Shown: positions 549 through 52,600 of the stretch, piece after piece
Layout of the letters: each line of letters opens with the position of its first letter
How positions within the stretch are numbered: position 1 is the first letter of the stretch
Source of the DNA: Myxococcales bacterium
GTDB taxonomy: Bacteria > Myxococcota_A > Polyangia > Polyangiales > Ga0077539
NCBI GenBank assembly: GCA_016792845.1
Contig: JAEUKH010000018.1
Location: 138,984 to 202,983 of the forward strand
Direction: 5' to 3'
Length of the DNA stretch: 64,000 nt
The notes under the pieces: generated by a model
The model's database searches: none
The model's input: only the letters and a program-made list of their open reading frames with translations
What the model was told of the DNA's origin: nothing
Program-made: the position numbers and the translations under genes

Positions 549-1125
549 CCTGAGCACCATGCGCCCACACCCTTCGCCCACTCACCGCGCGGCCTGCCTC
601 GCCCTCGCGCTCTGCCTCAGCGCCTGCGGCGGCGCCCGCGGATACAGCAGCGGCGGCGACGACGCCTCCTCCCGCGACGACGCGTCGACCCAAGACCTCG
701 GCGGCCTCGACGCGGGCCTCGTGACACCTCCCGATGACCTCGGGCGCCCGCCCGCTGACACGGGCAACGTCACACCGCCCGCTGACACCGGCAACGTCAC
801 ACCGCCCACCGACACCGGCAACGTCACACCGCCCGCTGACACCGGCAACGTCACCCCGCCCACCGACACGGGCAACGTCACACCGCCCGCTGACACGGGC
901 AACGTCACCCCCCTCGACGCGGGCACGATGCCCGCGATCTGCCCCTCATCGTGCACCACCTCGACGGCGTGCGAGCCGTGCCGCGGGCCGAGCGACCCGC
1001 CGGGCTCAAACTACTGCTGCGTGAGCGGACTCTGCCTCTACATGCAGGGCGTCTGCGGCAGCGTGCCGACCGACGTCGCGCTGCCCACAGACCTCAGCGC
1101 CGACGTGGGCGACCTGGGGCTCTGA
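514..1125 (+). CDS. Exported lipoprotein with 11-aa tandem repeats and a Cys-rich C-terminus
   Basis: Signal peptide with lipobox LSAC. About six copies of [A/T]DTGNVTPP. C-terminal segment with 8 Cys. Confidence 0.5.
   Translation: MPPPRAPSREADLSTMRPHPSPTHRAACLALALCLSACGGARGYSSGGDDASSRDDASTQDLGGLDAGLVTPPDDLGRPPADTGNVTPPADTGNVTPPTDTGNVTPPADTGNVTPPTDTGNVTPPADTGNVTPLDAGTMPAICPSSCTTSTACEPCRGPSDPPGSNYCCVSGLCLYMQGVCGSVPTDVALPTDLSADVGDLGL
757..917 (+). repeat. 33-bp tandem repeat (about 5-6 copies) inside the lipoprotein gene
   Basis: ccgc(t/c)gacac(g/c)ggcaacgtcacaccgcc repeated head-to-tail, encoding PPADTGNVTPP / PPTDTGNVTPP. Confidence 0.8.
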
Positions 1126-6386: not shown

Positions 6387-7271
6387 GTGAGCTTCTCAAC
6401 GCCCCTCATTTCGGTCGAAGCGTTGTCTACCCTGGCCGCCTCACCGCGGCTCCGGTTGATCGACCTCCGGTGGCATCTCAACGGCCCGAGCGGCGCCGAT
6501 TTGTACGCCCGCGGCCACCTCGACGGGGCCGTCTTTGTCGACCTCGAAGCCGCCCTCACGGCCCCCGTGGGCCCCGGGCGACACCCCATCGCCAGCCGCG
6601 CCCAGTTTGAGCGGGCCATGCGCGCGGCGGGCGTCTCGAACGACACGACGGTGGTGGTCTACGACGACGCCGGCGGCAGCGTCGCGTCTCGGCTCTGGTG
6701 GCTCTTGCGATACTACGGGCACACCGAGGTCGCGGTGCTCGACGGCGGCCTCGCCCGCTACGAGGCCCTCGGCGGCGCGCTCAGCACCCGCGCCACGGCG
6801 CCCGAGCCCGGCAGCTTCGTGGCGAAGCCCGGGGCCATGCCCGTGGTCTCGGCCCTCACCGTCGAGGCTCGGGCCGCCGAGCCCGAGGGGGCGCTCCTCC
6901 TCGACGCCCGCGCGCCCGAGCGGTACCGCGGCGAGGTCGAACCCGTCGACGCCCGGGCGGGGCACATCCCCTCGGCCCGCAACGCCTTCTGGCAGTGGCA
7001 CCTCGACGGCGCGGTGTTTCGCAGCCGAGAGGCCCTCGCGGCCCACTTCGCCGCCCTCGGGGTCACCCCCTCGCGCGAGGTGATCGCCTACTGCGGCAGC
7101 GGCGTCACCGCCTCACAGCTCATCTTGGCCCTCACCTACGCAATGCCCTCCCTCACCGTCTCGCTCTACGAAGGCAGCTGGAGCGACTGGTGCCGCGACC
7201 CCTCGCGCCCCATCGCCACCGGCGAGGCCCCGGGGCAGCTCTGGCCATCAAGCCCATCGCCCCGCTGTTGA
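6387..7271 (+). CDS. Tandem-rhodanese sulfurtransferase (thiosulfate/3-mercaptopyruvate type)
   Basis: Two rhodanese modules. Active-site loop CGSGVTAS near the C-terminus. Confidence 0.75.
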   Translation: MSFSTPLISVEALSTLAASPRLRLIDLRWHLNGPSGADLYARGHLDGAVFVDLEAALTAPVGPGRHPIASRAQFERAMRAAGVSNDTTVVVYDDAGGSVASRLWWLLRYYGHTEVAVLDGGLARYEALGGALSTRATAPEPGSFVAKPGAMPVVSALTVEARAAEPEGALLLDARAPERYRGEVEPVDARAGHIPSARNAFWQWHLDGAVFRSREALAAHFAALGVTPSREVIAYCGSGVTASQLILALTYAMPSLTVSLYEGSWSDWCRDPSRPIATGEAPGQLWPSSPSPRC

Positions 7272-7555
7272 ACGGTGTTCAACACGCCCCTCGCATCGCC
7301 TTGTTGAACAGTGTTCAACACGCCCCCCATCGGCGCCACAACCACACTCGCAGCGCTTCGTTGAGCGGCGCTCAACACGATCACCGCGGAGAGGCGGCAC
7401 GCTGTTGAACAGCGCTCAACAGCGAGGCCCGATGACGCTTCGGCGCCCGCGGAGTGTGCGGCGGTCGCGCGACCGGCGGCCCTCACGGGTCGGGGGTCAC
7501 ACGCAGACGCTGTAGCGATTCTCTGGGGCGAGGAGGCTGTTGAACAGTGTTCAAC
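7267..7555. repeat. Array of five 17-bp palindromes GTTGAAC-N3-GTTCAAC in a convergent intergenic region
   Basis: Copies at about 7267, 7303, 7360 (GTTGAGCGGCGCTCAAC), 7404 and 7539. Spacing is irregular (34-126 bp). Confidence 0.85.
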
Positions 7556-7576
7556 ACGGCGGGGCGCCGAGGGCGC

Positions 7577-8668: not shown

Positions 8669-8761
8669 CGCCTTTGCCCTCGTGTGCGTTCTTTCTGCGC
8701 CGACGCGCCGAAGCGCAGTACCACAGCCGTCGGGCCGCGCGACACGTCTGTCAGTCAACCC

Positions 8762-8779
8762 TGTCAACGCGTTGACAGA
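8762..8779. promoter_or_regulatory. 18-bp perfect palindrome CTGTCAACGCGTTGACAG in the divergent manC / PDZ-protein promoter region
   Basis: Perfect inverted repeat, flanked by TGTCAGTCAAC. It lies between the manC start (8668) and the 8839 start. Confidence 0.5.
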
Positions 8780-8838
8780 CCCGTGCGACGGCTTTGCGTG
8801 AATCTTGCGACTTTTCGACGGGTGGCGTTTGACGTCGC

Positions 8839-10773
8839 TTGATGGTGACCGTCGCCGCCCGCCGCTCGCGCTTGCTCCTCGTTGGTGCCCTGCTCTTGGG
8901 GGCGTGTGAGACGCAGCCCACCCACGAGGTGTTGTCACTCACCGACCTCACGCCCCGGGCCCTTGAGGTCGGCGAGCGGGTGGTGCTCACCGGCGCGGGG
9001 CTGCCGCAAGCGCAAGACATCCACCGCATTCGGCTGCGCTTCAGCGGCACCGTCGCGCGCCCCGGCGCGGCCAGCTGCGGTCGCCCGGTGGTGCTCAACG
9101 TGGTCGACCCGCCCGACGAGGCGCAGCTCACCGACCACCTCACCGGGCAGAGCCGCGCGGCGACCTATGCCGAGAGCGCGCTCCACACGGTGCGCGTCGA
9201 CGGGCCCAATCGGCTTGAATTCGTGCTCACCGCGGCGATGCTCGACACCCTCTCGCGGTGCCCCGAGGCGAGCGAGGCGCAGAGCGACGCCCCCACCCAC
9301 GCGACGCTGAGCCTCAGCGGGGCGCGGGGCGGCGTGAGCCTCCAGATCGAGACCGCCCAGGGCACCGTGCTCTCGGCCGCCAGGGCGCTCCGCGGACCCA
9401 CCGTCGAGCTCATCCCCCATCGGGCCGCGCTGGCCGAGGAGCTCGCCGCGCGCACCACCGCCGAGCGCGCCCTCGACACCTTGGGCCTCCAGCTCGCAGC
9501 GGCGCACCCCACCGAAGGGGGGCTCCAGATCGAGCGCGTCAGACCCGGCTCTGCGGCCGACGAAGCGGGCCTCTCAGACGGCGACGTGATGGTGCGCCTC
9601 GATGGCGTGACCCTCCTCGGAGTCGGCGATTTTCTCCCCGCTCCGTCGCGCGAAGTCTCGGTGCTCACGGTGCGCCGCGGAGACGCCCTCGACGACCGCG
9701 CGATGCGGGTCTCGAGCCTCGCCCCGACGGCACCCGCCGACCTCGTCGCGACGGGCGTCTTGCTCCTCGTGGCGATGGCCTGGCTCCTCGTGGCCCGCGG
9801 CGGCGGCCCGGGCTCGGTGCGCTGGATCGTGCGTCGCCTCGGCAGCCCCGAGCGCGACCCCAGCACCCATCACAGCGCCCTCGACGACGCGCGCCGCGGC
9901 TGGCGTTGGAGCTGGCTCGTCGGCGACCTCCGGCGTCAGCTCTTGGGCCTCGCGGTGTTCGGCAGCACGCTGCTCTGCACGGTGCTCGGGCCCTTGTTCT
10001 TGGGGCGCGACCTCGACCTCGCGGCGGCCCACGGTTTTGTCGCTTTGGGCTCGCTGAGCCTCTCGGCCTTCTTGCTTCGTCAGCGGGGTCTCGCCCTCCA
10101 TCACACGGCCCGCGCACTCATCGACCGGCTCCCGAACGAGCTCCTGGCCCTGCTCCCGGTGGCGGTGGGCGTGATGGCCGCGGGCTCGCTGCACGTGCAA
10201 GACCTCGTCGACGCCCAGGGCGGCGCCCCGTGGCGCTTTACGGGCCTCGGCGCCCCCTGGACGGCCCTCCTCGTCGTCGGCTGGTGGGCCTCTCTGGTGC
10301 GTTCGACGGAGCCCGGCGTGGCCCTCGACCTCCGGGCCTGGGCGGGCACCGTCTCGATGCTCTGGGTGCGCGCGATGCTCGGCGTGGTGGTGTTTCTCGG
10401 CGCTTGGCGGCTCCCCGGCGTCGGGGCGATGACCCAAGACGCCCGCGCCTCGCTCAGCATGCTCGGGGCCCTGTGGCTGTCGCTCAAAGCCTGGGCCCTG
10501 GTGCTCTCGGCGCTCGCCGCCCGACGCGCCTTCGCCCGGGTGAGCGCCCCGCGCTTCAGCCGCTTCGTGCTCCGCGCGTGGCTGCCCATGTCGCTCGTCG
10601 CCGCGGCCCTCAGCGCCGCCCAGGTGCTCAGCACCCCCCGCCTCGGGAGCGTCACCCGCGACGTGCTCACCCGCTCGGCGAGTTGGGCCACCGTGGCCAC
10701 CCTGGCGATGGCCCTCGGGTGGATCACCTGGCGCCGCCTGCGCCCCCGCGCCACCTTCGGCTACGCCCCCTGA
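8839..10773 (+). CDS. PDZ domain-containing polytopic membrane protein
   Basis: N-terminal lipoprotein-like signal and a PDZ-like segment (GLQIERVRPGSAADEAGLSDGDVMVRLDGV), then at least 8 predicted TM helices. Confidence 0.5.
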   Translation: MMVTVAARRSRLLLVGALLLGACETQPTHEVLSLTDLTPRALEVGERVVLTGAGLPQAQDIHRIRLRFSGTVARPGAASCGRPVVLNVVDPPDEAQLTDHLTGQSRAATYAESALHTVRVDGPNRLEFVLTAAMLDTLSRCPEASEAQSDAPTHATLSLSGARGGVSLQIETAQGTVLSAARALRGPTVELIPHRAALAEELAARTTAERALDTLGLQLAAAHPTEGGLQIERVRPGSAADEAGLSDGDVMVRLDGVTLLGVGDFLPAPSREVSVLTVRRGDALDDRAMRVSSLAPTAPADLVATGVLLLVAMAWLLVARGGGPGSVRWIVRRLGSPERDPSTHHSALDDARRGWRWSWLVGDLRRQLLGLAVFGSTLLCTVLGPLFLGRDLDLAAAHGFVALGSLSLSAFLLRQRGLALHHTARALIDRLPNELLALLPVAVGVMAAGSLHVQDLVDAQGGAPWRFTGLGAPWTALLVVGWWASLVRSTEPGVALDLRAWAGTVSMLWVRAMLGVVVFLGAWRLPGVGAMTQDARASLSMLGALWLSLKAWALVLSALAARRAFARVSAPRFSRFVLRAWLPMSLVAAALSAAQVLSTPRLGSVTRDVLTRSASWATVATLAMALGWITWRRLRPRATFGYAP

Positions 10774-11003
10774 GTTGAACACTGTTCAACACGCGCCTGG
10801 CCGCGTCTTCGCGTCACCCTCGTCGCCCAGATGCGCGCCGTTCGAGGCGGCCTCGGCGCCGCAAGTTGAACACTGTTCAACACGCCCGCGCGCCGCGCTG
10901 ACGCCCCGCCGACGGCATCGCCGGACGCCTGCCCAGGCGCCGCACCGCGCCCCGAGGCCCGAACGATGAACGCTGTTCGGCGCCGTGTTGAACAGTGATC
11001 AAC
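10774..11003. repeat. Array of three or four GTTGAAC-N3-GTTCAAC palindromes in a convergent intergenic region
   Basis: Copies at about 10774, 10865 and 10987 (GTTGAACAGTGATCAAC), plus a degenerate copy near 10965 (GATGAACGCTGTTCGG). Confidence 0.85.
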
Positions 11004-11018: not shown

Positions 11019-12101
11019 CTAGCCGAAGCGAGCCAGGACGAGCCCCGCCACGAGGCCGCCGAGGTGCGCCGCGGCCGACGCGCGCTGCGCCGCCGCGAGG
11101 TCGAGCCCCGCCTGGAGCAACACGAGCCCCGTAAGGAGCAGCGCCCCGACCCGAAGCTCCGGGGTCTTTCGCAGGCGCGGCTCGCCGACGAGGGTCGCGA
11201 TCGAGGCCCCGACCAGGCCCATCGCGGCGCCGCTCGCGCCCACCACGAGAGTCACGCCGGGGCGCGAGGCCCAACTCGCCACGCCGGCCAAGACGCCGCT
11301 CATCACCCAAAGCGAGAGCGTGCCCCGGGGGCCGCGGCGCGACTCGACGAAGCGACCGAAGATCAGCGTCACGAGCACGTTCATGCTGAGGTGCAGCGCG
11401 TTGGCGTGGAGGGGCAGATAGCCCACCAGACGCACGAGGTCGCCCAGCCCCTCGGGAGGCACCCGCAAGGCGCCCCAGCGCAGGAGCCGTTCGGGGGTCG
11501 GCCCGCCGAGCAGGCGCTCGATGCCGTAGCCCGCCAGGAGCATGGTCGCGAGGGCGAAGGTCATGGGGCTCCGCGCCGACAAGACCGCGGGCGAGACCGT
11601 GACCCATGGTTGCAGCGAGAGGCTCGCGAGGAGCCGACGCGCCTCGACGCGCTTCTCGACCTGCGCGACGAGGCGATGCCACGCCGGGTCGCTCTGAACG
11701 ATGGGCGCCAGCGGCGAGGCGCGACGCCGTTCGAGCCGGTGACGCATGGCAGGCCCGAGGCCCGGCAAGGTCATCGCGAGGTCGAGCCGTCGCGCGGCCC
11801 GCTTCGCCCGATCGGCCCGTTGCAGCGCCACCGAACGCCAATACGCCGCGGCGCCGAGGGGAAGCTCAGCCCGCAGCTCGGCCACGAGGCTCGCCGTCGC
11901 GTCGACGAGGCCGAGGTGCGCCGCCACCACGAGGAGCTCAGCGGCCGTCGCGCGAGAGAGCGGCCAGCGCGCCCCGCCGAGGCGGTGCGTCAGCAGCGCC
12001 CCGGGGCCCTGACGGCGCACACGCAGGTCGAGCGCCGCGGCCTCTGAAGCGAGGCCGCCGAGGGTGGGATCGAGTTCGGGTGAGGCGAGCGACCCTGACA
12101 T
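11019..12101 (-). CDS. Rhomboid-family intramembrane serine protease
   Basis: GASGAAMGLVGA (GxSG) and the AHLGGLVAGL histidine helix at the C-terminus. N-terminal soluble domain. The start is uncertain; the ORF extends to 12221. Confidence 0.65.
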   Translation of the reverse strand: MSGSLASPELDPTLGGLASEAAALDLRVRRQGPGALLTHRLGGARWPLSRATAAELLVVAAHLGLVDATASLVAELRAELPLGAAAYWRSVALQRADRAKRAARRLDLAMTLPGLGPAMRHRLERRRASPLAPIVQSDPAWHRLVAQVEKRVEARRLLASLSLQPWVTVSPAVLSARSPMTFALATMLLAGYGIERLLGGPTPERLLRWGALRVPPEGLGDLVRLVGYLPLHANALHLSMNVLVTLIFGRFVESRRGPRGTLSLWVMSGVLAGVASWASRPGVTLVVGASGAAMGLVGASIATLVGEPRLRKTPELRVGALLLTGLVLLQAGLDLAAAQRASAAAHLGGLVAGLVLARFG

Positions 12102-12160
12102 CGTGGGCGGCTCTGGGCATAACGTGAACGGGCCGAGAGGCGTGAGCTTTTGGCAGCTTT

Positions 12161-12766
12161 TCAGGCCGCCAGGGCGCCGTCGTCGCGCTGCTTCTTCAGG
12201 GCGACCCTGAGGCGATGGCACCGTGTGTAGACGGTCTTCACGGGGATGGCGCAGACCTCAGCGATCTCGTTCGGTGACGACTCGTCGACGAAGAGCATCT
12301 TGACCATGGTCTGGTCGCGCTCGCTCATCTCGCCGAGGGTCTCTGCGAGGCGCTCACACGAGAGCCGCGCGGCGGTCTTCTCGAAGAGGTCTTCTTCGAC
12401 GTGCAAGATGTTCTCGAGCGCGGCGAGGTTGGCGCCGGCCGGGCGGCGGCTCACGGCCCTGAGGTAATCGTGGCAGCAGTGGCCGACCAGGAGGGTGATC
12501 CAGGTGCCGAGCCTCGCGCCGCGGTTGGGGTCGTAACAGCGCAGCTTGTGCATGTCGTTCGAGAGCAGCGAGGCGTAGTAGTTGGCGTGAATCTCTTCTT
12601 GATCTGCGCTCGAGAGCACCTTGGCGAAGCTGCCCGTCACCCGGTGGATCTGCATCCACACGAGGCGGTCGAAGCGGCGGTGAAACTCCCGCCACGCGCG
12701 GTCTTCCCCGCGGAGCATCCGGGCGAGAAGGTCGGTGTCGCTGAGCGTTTCGAACGTCTGGTGCAT
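12161..12766 (-). CDS. ECF-type RNA polymerase sigma-70 factor
   Basis: Sigma-70 region 2 (DQEEIHANYYASLL...) and a region-4 HTH (IAEVCAIPVKTVYTRCHRLRVALKKQ). Start placed at MHQTFETL. Confidence 0.7.
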   Translation of the reverse strand: MHQTFETLSDTDLLARMLRGEDRAWREFHRRFDRLVWMQIHRVTGSFAKVLSSADQEEIHANYYASLLSNDMHKLRCYDPNRGARLGTWITLLVGHCCHDYLRAVSRRPAGANLAALENILHVEEDLFEKTAARLSCERLAETLGEMSERDQTMVKMLFVDESSPNEIAEVCAIPVKTVYTRCHRLRVALKKQRDDGALAA

Positions 12767-34441: not shown

Positions 34442-35809
34442 ATGGAAGTTGAATGCGTTTCTTGTTCAACGCGCGCGCCGCAGGGCACGAAGCGTTGCCC
34501 CAAGTGCTTGAGGACTCGACTCTTGCCAGTGCCCGAAGCCCCCGCTCGGGGGGGCGAAAAGGGGCTCGCTCGACCCCTGCGCCTTGGGGTGCTCTTTGTG
34601 AGCCTCGGGCTCGGCGCGGGCGGGGCCGTCTGGCTCTCAAAATACAGAAAATCAAGCGACAATCGGGGTGTCGTCGCAGCCCCTGTGAGCGCGGCGCAGC
34701 TCGGCCTTGGAGATTCGTTGAGCCCCGAAGCGGCCGCTCTCACGCGGGCGGCCTCGACACCATCGGCGCGGCTCCGGGTGCTGGGCGAGCGGCTTCAGGC
34801 GCGACGGCGCGCGCGGTGGGTGTCTGGGGGTGATGGGGTGCCTCCGCCCCGCAGCCCGGCTCAGGTGTGGGAGGCCTTGGCGCGCCCCGAGACCGCGGTG
34901 ACGGAGCTCGAAGTGGCGCGTCTCGCGGCGGCGCTCTTGCGCGGGTGCGGCGACAGCGCCGAGGTCGCGCTCCGCGAGCGCCCGCGGCGACGTGAACACA
35001 GCCGTAGCGACGTGGCGGCCCTCGGCAGCTGGCTGGTGCGTTCGGGCGACCAGCTCCTCGACCTCGGGAGCATGATGGTGCTCGGCGCCAGCGCGGTGCC
35101 GCACACGGTGTTGAACAGTGTTCAACTCGCGGCGGCGCTCGACGCGGCAGCGGCGATCGAGGTCTCGACGGCGGCCGAGGGTCGGGCCGCGGCTTTAGGC
35201 CGGGCCGAGTCGGCGGTGAACGGTTGGCGCGACGGCTGGCTCCCGCTGGCTGCGCGGGCCACGGTTTGGGTCAACGTGGGGGCGAGCAGCGGGCTCGACC
35301 ACGCCGCCCGCGACCTCTCGGCGGCGATCGCGCTTTCAGACGACGCGGGCCTCCACCTCGCACGGGCGCGGGTGCTCCTGGGGCAGCGTCGCCTCGTCGA
35401 GGTCGCCTTCGAGACGCAGCGCGCGTTGCAGATGGCGCCGGGCTTCACCGAGGCCGCGATGGCGTCGATGCTCTTACATCGGGTCTACGCTCAGCTCGAC
35501 GGCGGCGCGCCTTCGGGGTGTGAGGCGCTCCATCTCGCGCACCAGCCCACGGCCGACCTCGCCTCGGTGCTCTGCGCCGAGGGCCAGTCTGAGGCCTCCC
35601 GGGCGCAGGCCGCGACGCAGCTCGTGGCGCGCTCGACAGACCCGTTGGTGTTGGCCTACGCGGGGCGGGCGCTCGGCCCTTCGGCGGCCCCGACGCTGCG
35701 GCAAAAGACGACCCTCGCGGCCGCGCGGCGAGAGCTCGTGGGCTGGCTCGAAGCGGCCGGTGAGAGCGCGCTGTTGGCGGCCCTGGTGCCCCAAGACGGT
35801 GGCCTGTGA
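34442..35809 (+). CDS. Zinc-ribbon plus TM hypothetical protein
   Basis: N-terminal C-x2-C-x10-C-x2-C, one TM, and a large helical domain. An in-frame palindrome at 35109 encodes LNSVQ. Confidence 0.45.
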   Translation: MEVECVSCSTRAPQGTKRCPKCLRTRLLPVPEAPARGGEKGLARPLRLGVLFVSLGLGAGGAVWLSKYRKSSDNRGVVAAPVSAAQLGLGDSLSPEAAALTRAASTPSARLRVLGERLQARRRARWVSGGDGVPPPRSPAQVWEALARPETAVTELEVARLAAALLRGCGDSAEVALRERPRRREHSRSDVAALGSWLVRSGDQLLDLGSMMVLGASAVPHTVLNSVQLAAALDAAAAIEVSTAAEGRAAALGRAESAVNGWRDGWLPLAARATVWVNVGASSGLDHAARDLSAAIALSDDAGLHLARARVLLGQRRLVEVAFETQRALQMAPGFTEAAMASMLLHRVYAQLDGGAPSGCEALHLAHQPTADLASVLCAEGQSEASRAQAATQLVARSTDPLVLAYAGRALGPSAAPTLRQKTTLAAARRELVGWLEAAGESALLAALVPQDGGL

Positions 35810-36195
35810 GGGCGCTGGGGCTGGCTGTCTTGGCGGCGCTTCTGGGGTGTGACCGCGGGGCCGAGCGCGCCCCCGCGGCGCCCCAGGAGGCGCTGCGCGA
35901 GTGGGTGCGGTGCAGCCTCGATGGCGTCGAGCCGACGGCCGACGTGGCGCAGCTCGAAGGGGCGCTGCGGCAAGGGCTGCGCCGCGATCGGGTGAACCTC
36001 GTCGTGCGCGGCGGGCGCTGCGAAGACAGCCTGGGGCTCGGGGCCGCGACGCACCCGTGTCTCGCGCCGCTCAAGACCCGGTGGGTTCAGTTTCTGACCG
36101 TCGCCCAGCGGCCCGGGGCCGACGCCATCGCCCTCGACATGGCCGTGCGCCACGTCGGCGAGCGCTACGACGCCGCCCGCCGTCACTGCCCGTGA
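35806..36195 (+). CDS. Small lipoprotein
   Basis: Lipobox LLGC. 4-bp overlap with the upstream gene. Confidence 0.4.
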   Translation: MRALGLAVLAALLGCDRGAERAPAAPQEALREWVRCSLDGVEPTADVAQLEGALRQGLRRDRVNLVVRGGRCEDSLGLGAATHPCLAPLKTRWVQFLTVAQRPGADAIALDMAVRHVGERYDAARRHCP

Positions 36196-36210
36196 TGTTC
36201 GACCTGGCGC

Positions 36211-37380
36211 TCAGGGCTCGCGCTGCACGAACAGCGACCACACCAGCGCGTCTTGGGTGTCTGTGGTGAAGACCGTGGGGCCCTCGCTCGGGCAGAGCCT
36301 GAGCCCGGCGACGTTCTCGTGCATGGGCACCTCGGTCTCGCCCCCAGAGGCCCGATCGTAGCGGGCCAGGCGCGCCCTGAGACCGACCGCGTGACGCACA
36401 AACCCCAAGCGCACGCAGCCGCGCCCGAGCTGCCGCGGGTCGACCACCGCGAGCACCCGCGAGAACGCGCGGTCGCCCGTCTGCACCACCGCGTCGTGCA
36501 CCGGCGGGAGCGTCTGCCCTCGCGACGCCTGCTGCTCGACGATCGAGAACTCCAACGGGAGGCCCGTCGTAAACCACGCGCCCGGCACCACCTCGGGCTC
36601 GACTCGCGGGTGAACCGGCTCGTCGTCGCGCTGTTGAACACTGTTCAACAGGGCGCGGTAAGTGACCGCGGTCGAAGGCACGAGCCGCGCAGCCCCGGGC
36701 CGGAGAGGCAGCGCGAGCCCCCCCACCGAGGGCCCCTCAAGGCTCGCCGCGCGGTCGAGCGCAGCCCCTTCGCCGAGGCCCACAAGCCCCTCGGGCGAGA
36801 AGGTGCCGCGGTTGAGCGCCGCAACACCGCCGACCTCGGCGCTCGGACCGCGGAGCACCGTCACGATCGCCGTGCCGCCGCGCACCGGCGGGGGCAGCAT
36901 CGGCGAGAGGTTGCGGGTCTCGAGCACCATCACGAGCTCGGCCGGCGCGTGGGTGCACCACTGGAGCTGCCCCGTGACGCCCATGGGTTCGCGGGCCACC
37001 ACCAAGGCAGGAGGCATCACGCTCACACGCTCGGCGCCCTCGGCGCGGTGTTGCAGCCCGAGGCGCTCGATGCGGTGATACCCGTGAACCGAGACCACCA
37101 CGGCCGCGCAGGTCTCGGCCCCGAGGCTCAGGGTGTACGACGCGTGACCCCGCGCGCCCGCGTCGGCTTCGAGCACCGGGAGCGTCACCTCGACGGGCTC
37201 GCGCATCCCCAAAGCCCGGGCCACCGCCACCTCGGTGTTGTGGACCCGCCGCGCGAGCGCCTCGGCCACCGGCGGCGCGTTTTCGGGAGGGTGCCGCGCC
37301 CGCGTCGCCGTCGCGTACATCAGCGCCACGATGGCCGAAAAGAACGCGCTGAGCACCCACAACACCGCCCGCAGAGACAT
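36211..37380 (-). CDS. Membrane-anchored hypothetical protein
   Basis: N-terminal TM. An in-frame palindrome at 36633 encodes LLNSVQQ. Confidence 0.4.
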   Translation of the reverse strand: MSLRAVLWVLSAFFSAIVALMYATATRARHPPENAPPVAEALARRVHNTEVAVARALGMREPVEVTLPVLEADAGARGHASYTLSLGAETCAAVVVSVHGYHRIERLGLQHRAEGAERVSVMPPALVVAREPMGVTGQLQWCTHAPAELVMVLETRNLSPMLPPPVRGGTAIVTVLRGPSAEVGGVAALNRGTFSPEGLVGLGEGAALDRAASLEGPSVGGLALPLRPGAARLVPSTAVTYRALLNSVQQRDDEPVHPRVEPEVVPGAWFTTGLPLEFSIVEQQASRGQTLPPVHDAVVQTGDRAFSRVLAVVDPRQLGRGCVRLGFVRHAVGLRARLARYDRASGGETEVPMHENVAGLRLCPSEGPTVFTTDTQDALVWSLFVQREP

Positions 37381-37522
37381 CGCGCGAGACTCTCACGCAT
37401 GACGCGCGCCCAGCAACGCGCGAGCGCGCACCCCCCGGCGGGCGCGGCGGCCGAGTGCACAGCCGCGACCGATGACAGGGCTCCACAACGGCCGCGCGAG
37501 GCGCTAGGCTGGCGGCCCTTCG

Positions 37523-38758
37523 ATGCGAGCGCGCGCTACGGCTTTGATGACTCTCTCGACGGCCCTCTGGGTCGCCTCGTCGCCCGCAGCGGCTCAGCTC
37601 ACGGGCGGGCGTATCGGCGGCTCCAACTGGGGCGCCGCGCGGCCCTCGCGCACCGTCCAGGCGAGGCCCTCGGTGATGCCGTCGTTCGGTGCGCCGACGC
37701 CGAGGCCGGCCCCCGCCCCCGCGCCGACGGTGCAGCTGCCGGGGCTCCCGGCGGTGGCTCCGAACCCCGCCGCGATGCCGGGGATCGCCGTCGTCACGCC
37801 GCGGGTCGAGGTGCCAGCGGCGCCGCTCCCTCGCCTCGCGGTGAGCGCGTATGTCGCCCCGCCTCCGCACCCGGGGTATGTGCTCTACGCTCCCGGGGGT
37901 CGCACCCTTGAGCCCGACGAGGCGCAAGCGACGCACCCCCTCTGGCCGATGCACGACACCTACGGCCCGCTGAACCTCCTGGGCGGCGCGGTGGTCTTTG
38001 TGGGTCTCTTCGGCGCGCTCGGGGTCGGCGCCTGGGTGCTCACCCGGGCTCAGGGCGCAGCGCCGTCGCCCTCGCCGCCGTCCATTCCCCACGCTCCTGC
38101 GGGGCTCCCGGTGTCGCTCGGCCGGGTCTCGCTCGCGTTCGACGCCTCGCTCCGCGCGCACCTCCAGGCTGAGCTCGCGCGCTTCGCCGCGCAGGCGTCG
38201 TCGTCGTCACCTGAGGCCCTCGAGCGCACGACGCGGCAGGCCATCGACCTCCTCGGCAGCGCCCTCGGGGCGGCGCGGGCCGCCGCGGTGGCGAGCGCGC
38301 AGAGCCGCGTCGACGAGGCCGAGCGGCGCTTCACCGGGCTCGCCGATTCGCTGCGGCAGCGGTACACCGTCGAGAGCATCACCGAGGCCCGACGGGTGGT
38401 GATGCCGGGCCTCTCGCCCCTCGCCGACGAGGGTCAAGGCTTCGTGGTGGTGTCGCTCCTCGTCGCTGTTGAAACCCCGGATCTTGAAGCCCCCGCAGAG
38501 TTGAACACTGTTCAACTTGGGGCGTGGTTGCGCGCGCTGCGACCGCGGGCCGGGGGGCTCCTCGCGACGGAGCTCATCTGGTCACCGGCCGACCCTGGCG
38601 ATCTCATGTCATCGGCCGAGATGCTGCACCTCTACCCCGAGCTTCGCCCGCTCGAAGGGGCGACGCTCGGGCGCGTGGTGTGCGGGCACTGCCGGGCGGT
38701 GTTCGCCGCCGAGTTGGGGCGCTGTCAGCGTTGCGGCGCGGCGCCCGCCCAAGCCTGA
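37523..38758 (+). CDS. DUF1517-like exported protein with a C-terminal zinc ribbon
   Basis: Signal peptide then GGRIGGSNWG. C-terminal C-x2-C-x12-C-x2-C. An in-frame palindrome at 38500 encodes ELNTVQL. Confidence 0.4.
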   Translation: MRARATALMTLSTALWVASSPAAAQLTGGRIGGSNWGAARPSRTVQARPSVMPSFGAPTPRPAPAPAPTVQLPGLPAVAPNPAAMPGIAVVTPRVEVPAAPLPRLAVSAYVAPPPHPGYVLYAPGGRTLEPDEAQATHPLWPMHDTYGPLNLLGGAVVFVGLFGALGVGAWVLTRAQGAAPSPSPPSIPHAPAGLPVSLGRVSLAFDASLRAHLQAELARFAAQASSSSPEALERTTRQAIDLLGSALGAARAAAVASAQSRVDEAERRFTGLADSLRQRYTVESITEARRVVMPGLSPLADEGQGFVVVSLLVAVETPDLEAPAELNTVQLGAWLRALRPRAGGLLATELIWSPADPGDLMSSAEMLHLYPELRPLEGATLGRVVCGHCRAVFAAELGRCQRCGAAPAQA

Positions 38759-45998: not shown

Positions 45999-47831
45999 AT
46001 GAAGCGTCGGTCAATTGCCGCCACCGTGCGGACAGGATCAGTGTACGCTGTTGCGCTCGCGACAGCTCTCGGGGCCCGTTCGGGTCTCGCCCAACCCATC
46101 ACCCCGACGGCGACGCAGACGAGCCCTGCGACCCCCGCGCAGACGGGCACCGACCCGGGCACGACCTCGGGCGCCACGACGCCCGCGGGCGGCTCGAACA
46201 GCGCCCAGGGCTTCGCGCCTCCGAACCTCGGGCAGACGGCCCCGCAAGACCCCGGCCCGCAGCCGCAGGCGGGCGCTCCGGCGGTTCAGCCTGTGCGTAT
46301 GGAGGCCCCGGTGGCCCGCACGGCGCCGGCGACGTCGGCCCGCCCGTCGACGCCCCACGATTTCATCGACACCCGCATCACCTGGACGTTCGGTGACGAC
46401 GACATCTTGACCTCGACGGGTCAGCGGGTGCCCGTCTCGCCGCTCCCGCGGATCGCCGACCGACAGCAGTACCAGCTCTTCTTCGACGCGCTGAACTCGC
46501 GCTTCGCGGGCCGTGAGAACCTCACGCACCTCGCGATGTACGCGCGGGCTCCGGGCTTCATCGACCGGCTGACCACCGAGGCGGGCTTGATCCTCCGTGT
46601 CGACCTCGGCCAGTTGACCACGGGCTCGGGCAACTTGAACCAGGCCTTCTACGACGCGGGCACGTTCTTGCGTGTGGCCTACGGGCTGAACCCTTCGCGG
46701 GCCTCGGACCAGGTGTCGCTGACCTTCTTCCCCTTCGACACTGACCGCTTTCGGCTCGGGTATCTTTGGGATCTCTCATGGGGCGGCAACGACGTCTTCC
46801 CGCGCCGCGTGGGCCCCGCCCCGGGCCTGAAGCTTCAGCTCGACATCGGCGGGCTGCAGCTCTGGACGGGCTTCAAGACCGCCGGCATCGTGGTGCCCCT
46901 TGAGGTGGTCACGCAGTCGCGCGACATCGAGATCGTGCGCGTCGAAGAGACCCAGTATGCGGCCCTCGCGGGCGGCGCGTACCGCTTCAACGAGAACGTC
47001 AGGTTTGACGTCTCGGGCGGGTACTTTCAGCAGGGTCGCTTCGACTTCCCCGGGGTGCGCGGGCAACAGGTCTACCTCGTCGGCGGCAGCGCGCGGCTGG
47101 TGTTCTCGCAGGGCCTCAGCGCGGGCCAGTCGCTCGACATGCGGCTCTACCGCAACGACCCGACGACGCCCTTCCAGGCCTTCACCCCCGAGACCTACAC
47201 CCCCGGCCGCGTCTTGTGGAACGTGTCTCTCGAAGGCACCGCCATCGGTCAGAACCTGGCCGACATCAACTTCCCCGGGCGTACGGCGATCCAGACGGGC
47301 TTCGCGGGGGCGCTCCAAGCCCGCCTCAAGGCTGGCTACTTCGGCGCGGGCTTCACGGCCCTCTACCGCGACGTGCCCTTCCTCCTCCGCAACGTGCCGA
47401 GCTTCATCCCCTTCCAGACCTTGCCCACCGACGCGACGGTCGACCCTGAGTTCTTCCTCGCCGCGCAGGTCGACTACGCCTTCGTGCGTCAGCATCTCAT
47501 CCCGAGCTTGATCGTGGGCATGCAGCTCCCGGCCTCGTTCTCGAGCTCGGTGCGCGAGGGCTCCCTCGAATCCGAGCGCACGCTCGTGATTCGCCGCGCG
47601 GGCAACTTCTCGATCCTCCCGCCGGGCGAGGGCCGCGTACCGATCATCTCGGCCCGCGCCTCGATGCGCTGGGATCTCTCGACCGTCCTCGCGGGCATCT
47701 TCTGGGTGCAGTACGTGCTCGACCAGAACGCCACGCTCCTCCAGGTCGACTCGTCGGGTACGCGCCAGGTGCGTATCTTCCAAGCGGCCAATCAGCTCGG
47801 CTTCGGCATCACCGCGCAAGCCCGCTTCTGA
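45999..47831 (+). CDS. Outer-membrane beta-barrel protein
   Basis: Signal peptide, alternating amphipathic strands, and a C-terminal ...GFGITAQARF with terminal Phe. Confidence 0.5.
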   Translation: MKRRSIAATVRTGSVYAVALATALGARSGLAQPITPTATQTSPATPAQTGTDPGTTSGATTPAGGSNSAQGFAPPNLGQTAPQDPGPQPQAGAPAVQPVRMEAPVARTAPATSARPSTPHDFIDTRITWTFGDDDILTSTGQRVPVSPLPRIADRQQYQLFFDALNSRFAGRENLTHLAMYARAPGFIDRLTTEAGLILRVDLGQLTTGSGNLNQAFYDAGTFLRVAYGLNPSRASDQVSLTFFPFDTDRFRLGYLWDLSWGGNDVFPRRVGPAPGLKLQLDIGGLQLWTGFKTAGIVVPLEVVTQSRDIEIVRVEETQYAALAGGAYRFNENVRFDVSGGYFQQGRFDFPGVRGQQVYLVGGSARLVFSQGLSAGQSLDMRLYRNDPTTPFQAFTPETYTPGRVLWNVSLEGTAIGQNLADINFPGRTAIQTGFAGALQARLKAGYFGAGFTALYRDVPFLLRNVPSFIPFQTLPTDATVDPEFFLAAQVDYAFVRQHLIPSLIVGMQLPASFSSSVREGSLESERTLVIRRAGNFSILPPGEGRVPIISARASMRWDLSTVLAGIFWVQYVLDQNATLLQVDSSGTRQVRIFQAANQLGFGITAQARF

Positions 47832-48399
47832 GCGGCAGTTCAGCCAAACCCAGCGCCGCGTCTTCGAGCACCTCTGCCGCGTCGCCGACGCCCTCCATCG
47901 AGAGCGCCGCGACGCCGTGGCAGTGCGCCCAGAGCGCCATCGCGCGCCCCCGCACCTGCCCCGTCGAGGCCAGCCCATCAACCGCCGCGAGCGCCACCAC
48001 GAAGCGCTCGAACGCGTCGTGGGCCCGGTTCGGCGCACGCCCCGCGGGCGCGAACATCACCGCGTAGAGACCCCGATGGAGCCGCGCGAAGCCCACGTAC
48101 GCCGCGCACACCGCGACGAGCTGGGCGCGGGCCGCGACGGCCTCGGCGCGGGCGCCATCGAGCCGCTCGACGAGGCGCGCGAAGCCCTCCTCTCGCACCG
48201 CCCCGAGGAGCCCCTCACGGTCAATGAAGTGGTGGTACGCCGCGGCCGGAGCGACCCCCGCCTCGCGGCACACCGCGCGCAGCGACAGCGCCGCCGAGGG
48301 GCCCGATTCGAGCATCGCCAGGGCCGTGCCCATGAGGGTCGCGCGGAGGTCGCCGTGGTGTTGCCCCACCCTCCGCGGGGGGCGCTTTCGCTTCGCCAT
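47809..48399 (-). CDS. TetR/AcrR-family transcriptional regulator
   Basis: N-terminal HTH LRAVCREAGVAPAAAYHHF. 196 aa. Confidence 0.8.
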   Translation of the reverse strand: MAKRKRPPRRVGQHHGDLRATLMGTALAMLESGPSAALSLRAVCREAGVAPAAAYHHFIDREGLLGAVREEGFARLVERLDGARAEAVAARAQLVAVCAAYVGFARLHRGLYAVMFAPAGRAPNRAHDAFERFVVALAAVDGLASTGQVRGRAMALWAHCHGVAALSMEGVGDAAEVLEDAALGLAELPLRSGLAR

Positions 48400-48445
48400 G
48401 TCTGGTGGTCGCAGCCTAGCCCGGCCCGCGCCCGCCGTGAACCGT

Positions 48446-48606
48446 GTTGAACAGCGTTCAACAGCGCCGAGGGCATCGAAGGGGCCGACCCGCGCTCAGC
48501 CCGGCCGAGGGTTGTCTGTCATGTTGAACAGCGTTCAACGGTGAACCCTGCGCGTGTTGAACAGTGTTCAACTTCGCCCCTGTGTGCGTGTTGAGCGGTG
48601 TTCAAC
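48446..48606. repeat. Array of four GTTGAAC-N3-GTTCAAC palindromes directly upstream of the TetR gene
   Basis: Copies at about 48446, 48523, 48556 and 48590 (GTTGAGCGGTGTTCAAC). Flanking GTGAACC motifs at about 48438 and 48541. Confidence 0.85.
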
Positions 48607-48898
48607 TGGGGCCTGGCCCGCGCTCCTGGCCCTGCGGGGGCGGCGGCATCCGGTCGGGCCTGCAGATCATGCGCTGGTCGCGGAAGGCCGCGCAGGTGCC
48701 CGAGATCGTGTGGGGGCCGAAGTTGACCGTGCAGGCGTCGCCGGTGTTGTGCCCCTGGCAGGCCGTAAACGCCTCGGCAGGGGGCTCAGGCGGTCGCCCG
48801 CCGGGGTTGCCCGGTTGGCCCTGCGGTTGGGCCGCGGCGAGGCCCGAGAGCGACAAGACGAGACCCAGTGAGCAGAGCGCGCGGCGCAGCGATTTCAT
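48602..48898 (-). CDS. Small secreted Cys-containing protein
   Basis: Signal peptide. 98 aa with 4 Cys. Pro/Gly-rich. Confidence 0.4.
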   Translation of the reverse strand: MKSLRRALCSLGLVLSLSGLAAAQPQGQPGNPGGRPPEPPAEAFTACQGHNTGDACTVNFGPHTISGTCAAFRDQRMICRPDRMPPPPQGQERGPGPS

Positions 48899-49026
48899 CA
48901 GGAGGCTCCTTGTGTGGACGGTTTCGTAGAGAGAAACGGCGCCCGCGGGGGCGGGCCTTCCCGCGAGGGGGGAGTGTTGGGCGATTTGTTGACCGGCGGG
49001 GCTTCGTTGGGGGCAGATCGCGCCGC

Positions 49027-49389
49027 ATGAGCCAGCCGAAGACCTACGCCGGAAGTTGTCACTGCGCCGCGGTGACGTTTGAGGTCACCGCCGACCTCGA
49101 TCAAGAGCTCGTCACCTGCAACTGCTCGATCTGTTCGCGCACGGGGGCCATCATGGCCTTCACGCCGCGTCAGGCGTTCACGCTGAAATCGGGGCAAGCG
49201 TCGCTGACCGACTATCAATTCGCCACGAAGCGCGTTCACCATGTGTTCTGCTCGGTGTGCGGCGTGCGCGCGTTCAGCTTCGGCGACGGGCCCGACGGGA
49301 GCCTGATGTACGTCGTCAACGTGCGCTGCCTCGACGGCGTGACGCTGAGCGCCCTCAAGACGAAAGAGTTCGACGGGCGGAGCTTGTGA
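49027..49389 (+). CDS. GFA-family protein (CENP-V/GFA zinc-binding domain)
   Basis: CHCAAV...CNCSICS...CSVCG Cys pattern typical of the glutathione-dependent formaldehyde-activating-like fold. Confidence 0.7.
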   Translation: MSQPKTYAGSCHCAAVTFEVTADLDQELVTCNCSICSRTGAIMAFTPRQAFTLKSGQASLTDYQFATKRVHHVFCSVCGVRAFSFGDGPDGSLMYVVNVRCLDGVTLSALKTKEFDGRSL

Positions 49390-49423
49390 GCGGAGCGCGG
49401 CGCGGCGTGGTACGAGCGAGGGC

Positions 49424-50731
49424 GTGAGTCTTCCGCTGGTTGTTGCGATCCAGAAGGCGCTCGGCGAGGCGCCCGGCCACCCTGCCCTCGTCGACGATGC
49501 GCTGCGGGCGGTGTTCAGCTTCCAGCTCCACGCGCCGCAGCTGACCGACGACCCGCGCGCGCGGGCCGCGCCGCACGCGGTGCTCCACGAGATGCTCACC
49601 CACCTCGCCGCGGGCCCGTGGCACGCGCGCTTTGTCGCCCTTGAGTTGAACAGTGTTCAACACGAGGCCCTGGTCATCGCGGGCTTCGCCGCCGCGTCGC
49701 TGCCCGAGGTCGAGTGGCTCATCAAGCAGAACTGGCGGGTCACCGAGGGGCTCCTCGCGGCCCGCGACGACGCCCCCGAAGCGCTGCTGGCGCTGGCCGA
49801 GCGGCTGCGCGGCAAGCCCGCCGAGAACCCCGCACTCTTGACGGCGCTGGGTCGCCTCGCGGTGATCGCCGACGGCCTCGAAGACGCGCTCACGTTGGCG
49901 AATTGTAGCCTCGCCGCGACGGCCGAGCGCGCCTTCACGGCCCTCGGCCCGACCCGCACCGCGCGGGTGGTCGAGCGGGTGCTCGCGCGCTTCGACCACA
50001 CGCCCGAGTTTCGCAGCCAGAGCCTCATCCCGATGCTCGAACGGGTCGGGCCCTGGCTCAACGCCCGCGCCCTCGACGCCGTGCTGACCCGGGCCGAGCT
50101 CCTCTCGAACACCTACCTCGCATGGGAAGATTGGGGCCAACGCCTCGGCCAGAACGCCGACACGCGCTTCGTCCTCGGGGCCGTCGCGGCCCGCATCGCC
50201 CAGCACGACGACCCGGGGCTCCGCGACGGGTGGCGCCGGGCCGCGCGCATGTTGCTCGACCGCGCGACGCACCGCGGGTTTGTGCCCTCGCCCGACGACG
50301 ACGTGTTCATCGACCCCGCGGGCGCGGCGCGCGGCAACGACGACGTGTGGATGGCCACCCGGAGGCTCCTCAACGCCATCGGCCCGACCCGCGCCGAGGC
50401 CGTGCTGACGGCAGCCTTCGCGGGCTACCGCGCCCCCTGCGAGGCCCTCCGCTTCGCCGTGAGCGGCATGTCGCCGGGCTACCTCTCTCGGGTCGCCGAG
50501 GCCATGGTGGCCGTGCGCGACGACCCTGCCTTCTCAGACCTCCTGGCCATCAGCGACCTCAAGCCCTTCGGCCCCGGGTTCGTCGACGCGCTCATCGAGG
50601 CCCTGCGCGACCTCCGTCCGCGCCGCGCCTTTGTGAAGCACCTTGAGCGCAACCTCAGCGTCGGCGACTACAACCGCCTCTCGATCTGGCTTGAGACGCG
50701 CCCGCCGCCCAAACGCCCCCGCGCGCCGTGA
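49424..50731 (+). CDS. Hypothetical helical-repeat protein
   Basis: 435-aa ORF with ordinary composition. An in-frame palindrome at 49644 encodes ELNSVQH. Confidence 0.4.
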   Translation: MSLPLVVAIQKALGEAPGHPALVDDALRAVFSFQLHAPQLTDDPRARAAPHAVLHEMLTHLAAGPWHARFVALELNSVQHEALVIAGFAAASLPEVEWLIKQNWRVTEGLLAARDDAPEALLALAERLRGKPAENPALLTALGRLAVIADGLEDALTLANCSLAATAERAFTALGPTRTARVVERVLARFDHTPEFRSQSLIPMLERVGPWLNARALDAVLTRAELLSNTYLAWEDWGQRLGQNADTRFVLGAVAARIAQHDDPGLRDGWRRAARMLLDRATHRGFVPSPDDDVFIDPAGAARGNDDVWMATRRLLNAIGPTRAEAVLTAAFAGYRAPCEALRFAVSGMSPGYLSRVAEAMVAVRDDPAFSDLLAISDLKPFGPGFVDALIEALRDLRPRRAFVKHLERNLSVGDYNRLSIWLETRPPPKRPRAP

Positions 50732-50794
50732 GCGCCCTGTTGAACAGTGTTCAACAGTGGGTGAAATTCGGGGGCGCAGCGGGTGCGGCGCGGG

Positions 50795-52600
<1,806 letters not shown>

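What the first reader, a model, noticed from the sequence alone, without database searches (positions are those of the whole stretch)
34442..38758. Three consecutive genes each carry one in-frame copy of the 17-bp palindrome, encoding LNSVQ/LNTVQ
The palindrome lies inside the coding sequence at 35109, 36633 and 38500, always in the one frame that reads TTG AAC AGT GTT CAA. One other frame is closed by TGA. A fourth gene (49424..50731, copy at 49644) shows the same. The host proteins are unrelated, so the shared pentapeptide is imposed at the DNA level. This is the behaviour of Rickettsia palindromic elements (in-frame insertion into ORFs), or of protein-binding sites maintained under selection inside genes.
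Basis: seen in the sequence. Interest (0 to 1): 0.8.

Follow-up and report, generated by a model that had tools for sequence, protein, structure and literature searches.

The report
TetR-operator palindrome inside four genes
A 17-base DNA palindrome found 16 times in this 64-kb piece of a myxobacterial chromosome, four times inside unrelated genes, is most likely the docking site of a TetR-family repressor encoded nearby, and it entered the genes by in-place base changes in tolerant protein loops, not by insertion of a mobile element.

Summary
GTTGAAC-A[G/C]T-GTTCAAC occurs 16 times with at most 3 mismatches (0.03 expected), 10 times perfectly. Four perfect copies lie in real coding sequence of four unrelated genes, and all read L-N-S/T-V-Q. 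The codons used are rare ones, so the constraint is on the DNA.

The insertion reading (Rickettsia-palindromic-element-like) fails. In the three host genes that have homologues, the alignment is ungapped and codon-for-codon at the palindrome. The pentapeptide replaces unrelated residues in a fixed-length variable stretch. In gene 4 that stretch is a loop in a confident AlphaFold model.

The protein-binding-site reading is supported, and a binder can be named. Four copies sit in the promoter region of a TetR/AcrR gene (47809-48399, minus strand). Five orthologues of that gene (41-47% identity) in other organisms carry the same palindrome, or a TGAAC-N3-GTTCA variant, just upstream of their start. 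The core equals the published BioQ (TetR-family) operator.

The multiplication is not explained. Twelve extra sites lie in clusters between convergent genes or inside ORFs, and this is seen only in this organism. I favour an enlarged operator or roadblock network. REP-like spread is the main rival.

Rating: new variant of a known kind, moderate interest.

The parts
35110..35126 (.). Perfect palindrome inside gene 1 (34442-35809, +). It encodes LNSVQ at residues 224-228.
36633..36649 (.). Perfect palindrome inside gene 2 (36211-37380, minus strand). It encodes LNSVQ at residues 245-249. The orthologue has YPFFV at that place, with no gap.
38500..38516 (.). Perfect palindrome inside gene 3 (37523-38758, +; DUF1517). 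It encodes LNTVQ at residues 327-331. The orthologue has HDLAS at that place, with no gap.
49645..49661 (.). Perfect palindrome inside gene 4 (49424-50731, +; alpha-solenoid protein). It encodes LNSVQ at residues 75-79, in the loop 73-80 between two helices.
47809..48399 (-). TetR/AcrR-family regulator gene (TetR_N plus the TetR_C_33 'WHG' domain). It is the proposed binder of the palindrome.
48446..48606 (.). Four palindrome copies (48446, 48523, 48556, 48590; 1, 1, 0 and 2 mismatches), 47-207 bp upstream of the TetR start codon. This is the putative autoregulatory operator array.
7267..7555 (.). Cluster of four copies plus one degenerate but still symmetric copy (7360, GTTGAGCGGCGCTCAAC). 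It fills the spacer between the convergent rhodanese and ManC genes.
10774..11003 (.). Cluster of three copies plus one degenerate copy (10965), between the convergent genes 8839-10773 (+) and 11019-12221 (-, rhomboid).
50739..50755 (.). Single perfect copy between the stop codons of gene 4 and dnaK, which are convergent.

Best explanation
The 17-bp palindrome is the operator of a TetR-family repressor, most probably the WHG-type TetR/AcrR protein encoded at 47809-48399. A TetR dimer would bind each copy through the half-sites TGAAC and GTTCA, extended here to GTTGAAC and GTTCAAC.

In relatives, this regulator has one or two such sites in its own promoter. In this organism the site has multiplied. 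Four copies sit in the TetR promoter, where they would give autorepression. Eight to ten fill the spacers between convergent genes. Four lie inside ORFs.

The intragenic copies were made by nucleotide replacement without any change of length, in segments that code for variable, loop-like parts of the host proteins. The only tolerated frame that also puts some G or C at wobble positions reads L-N-S/T-V-Q. The shared pentapeptide is therefore a by-product of a DNA-level requirement.

Inferred, not shown: repressor bound at the intragenic and 3'-end sites acts as a transcription roadblock or insulator that responds to the TetR's ligand. Alternatively the sites are tolerated extra or decoy sites.
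For: Shown:
- Four copies lie 47-207 bp upstream of a TetR gene.
- The genome-wide scan for the exact 17-mer found it 27-60 bp upstream of TetR orthologues (47% and 43% identity) in two unrelated MAGs, L049 and L025.
- Starting from the protein instead, three of four further homologues carry a matching site in their upstream spacer. L199 has GTTAAACAGTGTTCAAC. L200 has two sites with 2-3 mismatches. L202 has TCTGAACATCGTTCAGA.
- The core equals the published BioQ (TetR-family) site TGAAC-N3-GTTCA (PMC3398298; PMC9210681). Single copies in actinobacteria lie upstream of bioB and bioY, and others lie upstream of a different TetR gene with an RND efflux operon.
- The constraint is on the DNA. The codons are rare (P about 1.6e-5) and the peptide is absent from orthologues.
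- Length does not change. DUF1517 matches 181 residues to 183 profile positions.
- In gene 4 the copy codes for a loop (pLDDT 93 model).
- The copies share no flanking sequence, so they are not a longer mobile element.

Precedent: the TetR-family protein RutR binds mostly inside genes (PMC2475637). [quoted passage not shown]
Against: - Binding was not tested, and other TetR paralogues elsewhere in the genome could be the real binder.
- Ten of 16 copies, and all four intragenic ones, are perfect 17-mers. Operators that evolved one by one are usually degenerate, so this looks more like recent copying.
- Most extra sites lie between convergent 3' ends, where a repressor has no obvious promoter to control.
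- None of the orthologue loci (for example 20 kb of L200) has extra copies, so the expansion has no comparative support.
- Only 64 kb of this genome could be read, so the genome-wide density is unknown.
Confidence: 0.62

Rival explanations
1. REP-like selfish short palindrome. The 17-19-bp unit is copied around the genome by an unknown mechanism, for example a RAYT-type enzyme or templated conversion. It accumulates in neutral spacers between convergent genes and is occasionally tolerated in ORFs. The TetR link is then either the source of the sequence or a co-option.
For: - Ten perfect copies have unrelated flanks.
- Clusters with variable spacing and decaying copies sit in convergent spacers.
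- The expansion is specific to this lineage. The 185,579-species scan and the metagenome scan show only single copies in other high-GC DNA.
- One degenerate copy kept its symmetry (7360).
Against: - The three intragenic copies that could be tested show no length change, and a 17-bp insertion would shift the frame.
- There are no target-site duplications and no conserved GTAG-type head.
- No transposase or RAYT was found among about 60 window proteins scanned.
- The sequence is AT-rich in a 70% GC genome and identical to operators of TetR genes elsewhere.
Confidence: 0.2
2. In-frame insertion of a palindromic mobile element into ORFs, as with Rickettsia palindromic elements.
For: The same short DNA is present in four unrelated ORFs in one frame.
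Against: - Alignments to orthologues are ungapped for genes 2, 3 and 4.
- The unit is 17 bp, not about 150 bp (PMC10969869).
- No sequence is shared beyond the palindrome.
Confidence: 0.03
3. RNA or DNA hairpin function. The palindrome would act as a terminator, an mRNA 3'-end stabiliser or a cruciform, rather than as a protein site.
For: - Many copies lie 0-40 bp after stop codons of convergent genes.
- The palindrome folds as a 7-bp stem with a 3-nt loop.
Against: - The core hairpin is weak (-6.8 kcal/mol) and has no U-tract. A GC-rich genome could make far stronger stems.
- There is no Rfam match.
- A hairpin role does not explain why the exact sequence is conserved upstream of TetR genes in other phyla.
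Confidence: 0.08
4. LNSVQ is an ordinary protein motif.
For: None beyond its recurrence.
Against: - Orthologues have unrelated residues at the site.
- Rare codons are used identically in every copy.
- The host proteins are unrelated.
Confidence: 0.01

Closest known systems
BioQ operator (TetR-family biotin repressor of Corynebacterium and Mycobacterium): TGAAC-N3-GTTCA
   Same: The core half-sites and the 3-bp spacer are identical. The site lies in the regulator's own promoter. The C. glutamicum bioY primer in PMC3398298 holds TTGTTGAACACTGTTCAGG, which matches 15 of the 17 bases. Exact copies lie upstream of actinobacterial bioB and bioY.
   Different: No biotin genes lie near any window copy. 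The window TetR has a WHG (TetR_C_33) ligand domain, and its orthologues pair with a metallo-beta-lactamase-fold gene. BioQ has one site per promoter, not 16 in 64 kb. Orthology to BioQ was not tested.
E. coli RutR (TetR family), which binds mostly inside coding sequences (PMC2475637)
   Same: A TetR-family protein has high-affinity palindromic sites inside ORFs, with no obvious promoter role.
   Different: RutR has 20 sites in 4.6 Mb and they are degenerate. Here the sites are perfect, about 1 per 4 kb, and clustered. Binding is inferred here, not measured.
Stoperators of cluster A mycobacteriophages (own knowledge)
   Same: There are many near-identical copies of a repressor site, about one per 2-4 kb, including intragenic ones. 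Stoperators are thought to stop elongating RNA polymerase.
   Different: Stoperators are asymmetric, oriented with transcription, and lie on a phage genome. Here the site is symmetric and lies on a housekeeping stretch of chromosome (recA, dnaK, grpE, infC).
REP/BIME elements
   Same: They are short palindromes, species-specific, and clustered between convergent genes, with unrelated flanks.
   Different: REPs are extragenic, longer (20-40 nt), imperfect and GC-typical, and they are linked to RAYT genes. None of these features is seen here.
Rickettsia palindromic elements
   Same: Repeated palindromic DNA is read in frame inside unrelated ORFs.
   Different: RPEs are insertions of about 150 bp that add 30-50 residues. 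Here 15-17 nt are replaced with no change in length.

Membership tests
TetR-family operator (BioQ-type TGAAC-N3-GTTCA) | Palindrome of about 13-17 bp with 5-bp half-sites TGAAC/GTTCA and a 3-bp spacer | tested here: met
   GT-TGAAC-AST-GTTCA-AC in all 10 perfect copies. The motif is as given in PMC3398298 and PMC9210681.
TetR-family operator (BioQ-type TGAAC-N3-GTTCA) | The site lies in the promoter region of the regulator's own gene | tested here: met
   Four copies lie 47-207 bp upstream of the start of the TetR gene 47809-48399.
TetR-family operator (BioQ-type TGAAC-N3-GTTCA) | The site is conserved upstream of orthologous regulators in other genomes (phylogenetic footprint) | tested here: met
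   L049, L025, L199, L200 and L202 (41-47% identity) carry it. The 40%-identical Streptomyces homologue L201 does not.
TetR-family operator (BioQ-type TGAAC-N3-GTTCA) | The protein physically binds the site, and binding is relieved by a ligand | not testable with these tools
   This needs EMSA, DAP-seq or ChIP-seq.
BioQ regulon proper | The regulator is orthologous to BioQ and the sites lie upstream of biotin synthesis or transport genes | tested here: not met
   No bio genes lie next to any window copy. The TetR reaches no NCBIfam equivalog cut-off. No BioQ sequence was available for direct comparison.
Rickettsia palindromic elements / in-frame MITE insertion | The element adds residues relative to orthologues (a clean gap in the orthologue) | tested here: not met
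   Alignments are ungapped for genes 2, 3 and 4. Gene 1 has no homologue.
Rickettsia palindromic elements / in-frame MITE insertion | A conserved element of about 100-150 bp with terminal repeats | tested here: not met
   Only 17-19 bp are shared and the flanks are unrelated.
REP/BIME | Exclusively extragenic, imperfect 20-40-nt palindromes with a conserved 5' tetranucleotide | tested here: not met
   Four copies are in ORFs. The palindrome is a perfect 17-mer with no GTAG-like head.
REP/BIME | An associated RAYT (IS200/IS605-like) transposase | tested here: inconclusive
   None was found among about 60 window proteins scanned with Pfam. The rest of the genome was not available.
REP/BIME | Clusters in spacers between convergent genes | tested here: met
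   Clusters at 7267-7555 and 10774-11003, and the single copy at 50739.
SlmA-type nucleoid-associated TetR protein | Orthology to SlmA | tested here: not met
   The NCBIfam SlmA model scores 19 bits against a cut-off of 120.
Intrinsic terminator | A GC-rich stem followed by a U-tract | tested here: not met
   No T-run follows any copy, and the core stem is -6.8 kcal/mol.

The most novel reading that the evidence does not exclude
In this myxobacterium a TetR-family repressor has been turned from a one-promoter regulator into a dense chromosomal site network, about one perfect site per 4 kb. The sites sit at the 3' ends of convergent genes and inside ORFs. They would work as ligand-switchable roadblocks or insulators, a chromosomal counterpart of phage stoperators, or as an SlmA-like architectural system. 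The sites would be written de novo into loop-coding DNA without changing protein length.
Probability: 0.2. Interest if true: 0.75.

Novelty: new variant of a known kind. Interest (0 to 1): 0.45.

Why it matters
This would be a clear natural case of a transcription-factor site imposing a peptide on unrelated proteins, with DNA-level selection overriding codon bias. It would also show a local TetR repressor acquiring a dense, partly intragenic site network on a chromosome. Protein roadblocks at convergent gene ends, if real, would bear on how GC-rich bacteria with few intrinsic terminators end transcription. If the sites are instead inert or selfishly copied, the case is a caution for scans that read repeated palindromes in ORFs as mobile-element insertions.

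Tried and rejected
- Literature search for the 17-mer and its halves found nothing relevant. A loose 'BioQ/TGAAC' search was swamped by unrelated text.
- Gene 1 has no homologue except its own NCBI copy, so no insertion test was possible for it.
- The AlphaFold model of gene 3 from two sequences was unusable (pLDDT 35).
- Attempts to read beyond the window or to reach the 275-kb NCBI contig failed, so genome-wide density could not be measured.
- Rfam found only tRNA-Val.
- No -10 element follows the TTGAAC halves, so the copies are not promoters themselves. No sigma-70-like promoters or T-tract terminators are associated with the copies in 47700-51000.
- The viral contig scan gave only seven single hits.
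- A resemblance of GTTGAAC/GTTCAAC to the integron attC core sites (GTTRRRY/RYYYAAC) was considered and dropped. The unit is far too short, it occurs in clusters of 3-5, and no integrase is present.
- parS, LexA and CIRCE boxes were considered from memory and do not match.
- There is no metallo-beta-lactamase partner gene or TetR paralogue in the window.
- Foldseek of the gene 4 model against the PDB gave only generic alpha-solenoid hits.
Full report
OBSERVATION

The 17-mer GTTGAAC-A[G/C]T-GTTCAAC is present at 35110, 36633, 38500 and 49645. With up to 3 mismatches it occurs 16 times in the window, against 0.03 expected from dinucleotide shuffles; 10 copies are perfect. It is the only strongly repeated k-mer in the window. 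The centre G or C is the same site seen from the two strands, so all perfect copies are one sequence.

The window is about 70% GC. It is an ordinary chromosomal stretch carrying recA, cinA, dnaK, grpE, infC, moaC/E, moeA, RseP-like and Ser/Thr-kinase genes. One host protein is identical to 'hypothetical protein JNK72_06350 [Myxococcales bacterium]' from a 275-kb NCBI MAG contig. The nearest other relatives are Polyangiales MAGs.

A GC1/GC2/GC3 gene call and a frame plot show that the four copies lie in true coding sequence, with the same frame on both sides. The host genes are:
- 34442-35809 (+)
- 36211-37380 (minus strand, not plus)
- 37523-38758 (+, DUF1517)
- 49424-50731 (+)

A 129-aa ORF without a copy separates the first two. 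All four copies read TTG AAC AST GTT CAA. The four proteins are unrelated. With two open frames, four of four in one frame has p = 1/16.

The codons used are rare in this window: AGT is 1.9% of Ser codons, GTT 4.5% of Val, CAA 18% of Gln and TTG 12% of Leu. Given the peptide, this codon choice has a probability of about 1.6e-5 per site. The constraint is therefore on the DNA.

INSERTION OR REPLACEMENT

- Gene 3 aligns to its 45%-identical Polyangiales orthologue without a gap at the site (…APAELNTVQLGAW… against …APSGHDLASLMGA…). Between conserved anchors it is one residue shorter, not longer. Its DUF1517 match covers 181 residues for 183 profile positions.
- Gene 2 aligns to the syntenic orthologue without a gap (YRALLNSVQQRDD against LRALYPFFVGEPP).
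- Gene 4 has 15 homologues in the exhaustive search. In a 10-sequence alignment the region has no gap in any sequence, and ELNSVQ sits where the others have DDTGSG, DLWQMG, KLPAMA and so on, between conserved W66 and H/E-L-L.
- The DNA of the 52%-identical gene 4 orthologue matches codon for codon: GAC GAC ACC GGG TCG GGC CAC against GAG TTG AAC AGT GTT CAA CAC.
- A confident AlphaFold model of gene 4 (pLDDT 93) puts residues 75-79 in the loop 73-80 between two helices.
- Gene 1 has no homologues.
- The 16 copies share nothing beyond 1-3 flanking bases.

The RPE-like insertion model therefore fails for every gene that could be tested. The palindrome replaced 15-17 nt in place, in variable loop-like segments. 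Orthologues do not carry the peptide, so it is not a protein motif.

WHAT THE PALINDROME IS

Four copies (48446-48606) lie 47-207 bp upstream of a TetR/AcrR gene at 47809-48399 on the minus strand, with TetR_N and TetR_C_33 'WHG' domains.

A scan of 185,579 species genomes for the exact 17-mer gave only 72 stretches, and the window's genome is not among them. Among the high-GC single hits:
- Two, a Pseudomonadota MAG (L049) and a Myxococcota MAG (L025), have the palindrome 27-60 bp upstream of a TetR gene 47% and 43% identical to the window's. That gene is divergent from a metallo-beta-lactamase-fold gene.
- Actinobacterial hits lie upstream of bioB, bioY and MFS transporters.

Going the other way, I fetched the loci of four further homologues and read their upstream spacers:
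- L199 has GTTAAACAGTGTTCAAC.
- L200 has two sites with 2-3 mismatches.
- L202 has TCTGAACATCGTTCAGA.
- The 40%-identical Streptomyces protein (L201) has a different sequence.

The published BioQ (TetR-family) site is TGAAC-N3-GTTCA (PMC3398298; PMC9210681), which is exactly the core here. Soil metagenome contigs carry the same 17-mer in front of a distant TetR gene (26-28% identity), and in the one locus examined (L098) an RND efflux operon follows. The sequence is thus a TetR-type operator used by several subfamilies, and the neighbouring WHG-type TetR is the obvious binder in this window. That protein reaches no named equivalog, and its SlmA score is far below the cut-off. Its closest solved structure is an uncharacterised regulator, 3on2.

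WHAT IS UNUSUAL

Relatives have one or two sites per TetR locus and none elsewhere; 20 kb of L200 has only the promoter pair. No high-GC metagenome or viral contig shows multiple copies.

In the window there are 12 further sites, arranged in three islands (7267-11003, 35110-38516 and 48446-50755). Clusters of 3-5 fill the spacers between convergent genes. They include decaying copies, one of which kept its symmetry (7360).

The copies are not promoters: no -10 element follows them. They are not intrinsic terminators: there is no T-tract and the core hairpin is -6.8 kcal/mol. They match no known RNA family. A strain 99.7% identical keeps all three copies of the 35-38 kb island, but at that divergence this is uninformative.

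MECHANISM

Best supported (about 0.6): these are TetR operator sites. Those in the TetR promoter autoregulate. The others form an enlarged site set.
- Shown: the sequence class, the promoter position, the footprint across orthologues, the DNA-level constraint, and replacement without length change.
- Inferred: binding by this particular TetR, and any role of the intragenic and 3'-end sites, such as a ligand-relieved roadblock or insulator, or tolerated or decoy sites as proposed for RutR (PMC2475637) and seen for other factors (PMC4892627, PMC9934606).

The LNSVQ frame is the open frame that places more G or C at wobble positions (3 of 6 codons touched, against 1 of 5-6) and avoids Cys. This may explain the frame choice.

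Main rival (about 0.2): REP-like copying. It is favoured by the perfection of the copies and by the convergent-spacer clusters. It is disfavoured by the lack of length change, of target duplications and of any RAYT gene in the window.

COMPARISON AND VERDICT

The site works like a BioQ or TetR operator and meets the sequence, position and footprint criteria. It is not the BioQ regulon, because there are no biotin genes. It is not an RPE, a REP, an intrinsic terminator or a protein motif.

Of its two interpretations, the insertion one is rejected and the binding-site one is supported and sharpened.

Novelty: a new variant of a known kind, namely a TetR operator multiplied to about 1 per 4 kb with perfect intragenic copies. 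Interest is moderate (0.45). The open question is whether the whole genome shows the same density, and that can be settled by scanning the public MAG.

Noticed in passing
window 7267-7271 and 48602-48604: The palindrome's closed frame (TGA) supplies the stop codon of the rhodanese gene 6387-7271. On the other strand it does the same for the putative small secreted ORF 48602-48898 (-). The copy at 10774 starts directly after the TGA of gene 8839-10773.
   Followed up: partly
window 7360-7376; also 7404, 48590: The degenerate copy GTTGAGCGGCGCTCAAC carries the A-to-G change in both arms and so stays a perfect palindrome. The same A6G change occurs on one arm only at 7404 and 48590. This could reflect hairpin-templated correction or a second binding specificity.
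   Followed up: no
window 748-908: A 27-bp tandem repeat occurs 6 times (CCGCCCGCTGACACCGGCAACGTCACA, 91% matches), inside the ORF 448-1125 (+). That ORF has no Pfam match. The repeat is probably a 9-residue protein repeat.
   Followed up: partly
L010, L040, L063, L071 (Microcystaceae MAG); L015, L020, L021, L036, L061, L069 (Geminocystis); L115, L123, L127, L182 (about 46% GC metagenome contigs): Low-GC contigs, most or all of them cyanobacterial, carry many copies of the same 17-mer within a longer palindrome (read in L115, L123, L127 and L182 as GGGGTTGAACACTGTTCAACCCY). This looks like a separate genome-wide repeat family, unrelated to the TetR context.
   Followed up: no
L086 847-1888: A 43% GC metagenome contig has an array of about 15 direct-repeat units GTTGAACACTGTTGAACACT, a tandem rather than inverted arrangement of the same half-site.
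   Followed up: no
L098 2183-8835 (similar: L083, L090, L094, L106, L128, L174): The exact 17-mer, preceded by TAT, lies just upstream of a distant TetR gene (26-28% identity to the window's). In L098 a HlyD/AcrB/OEP efflux operon follows. The same operator is therefore used by an efflux-type TetR subfamily.
   Followed up: partly
window 49424-50731: Gene 4 belongs to a small family, with 15 hits in 1.8 billion representatives. The AlphaFold model is a very confident all-helical solenoid (pLDDT 93) with a Lys/Pro-rich C-terminal tail. It has no Pfam or NCBIfam family and no specific PDB fold match.
   Followed up: partly
L025, L049, L199, L200: Orthologues of the window TetR gene are consistently divergent from a metallo-beta-lactamase-fold gene, which in L200 is fused to a polyketide-cyclase-like domain. 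That partner is absent from the window.
   Followed up: partly
window 34442-34520 and 38660-38750: Host gene 1 starts, and host gene 3 ends, with CxxC…CxxC zinc-ribbon-like motifs (CVSCSTRAPQGTKRCPKC; CGHCRAV…CQRCG). Both proteins also have predicted membrane segments. They may belong to one functional module with gene 2.
   Followed up: no
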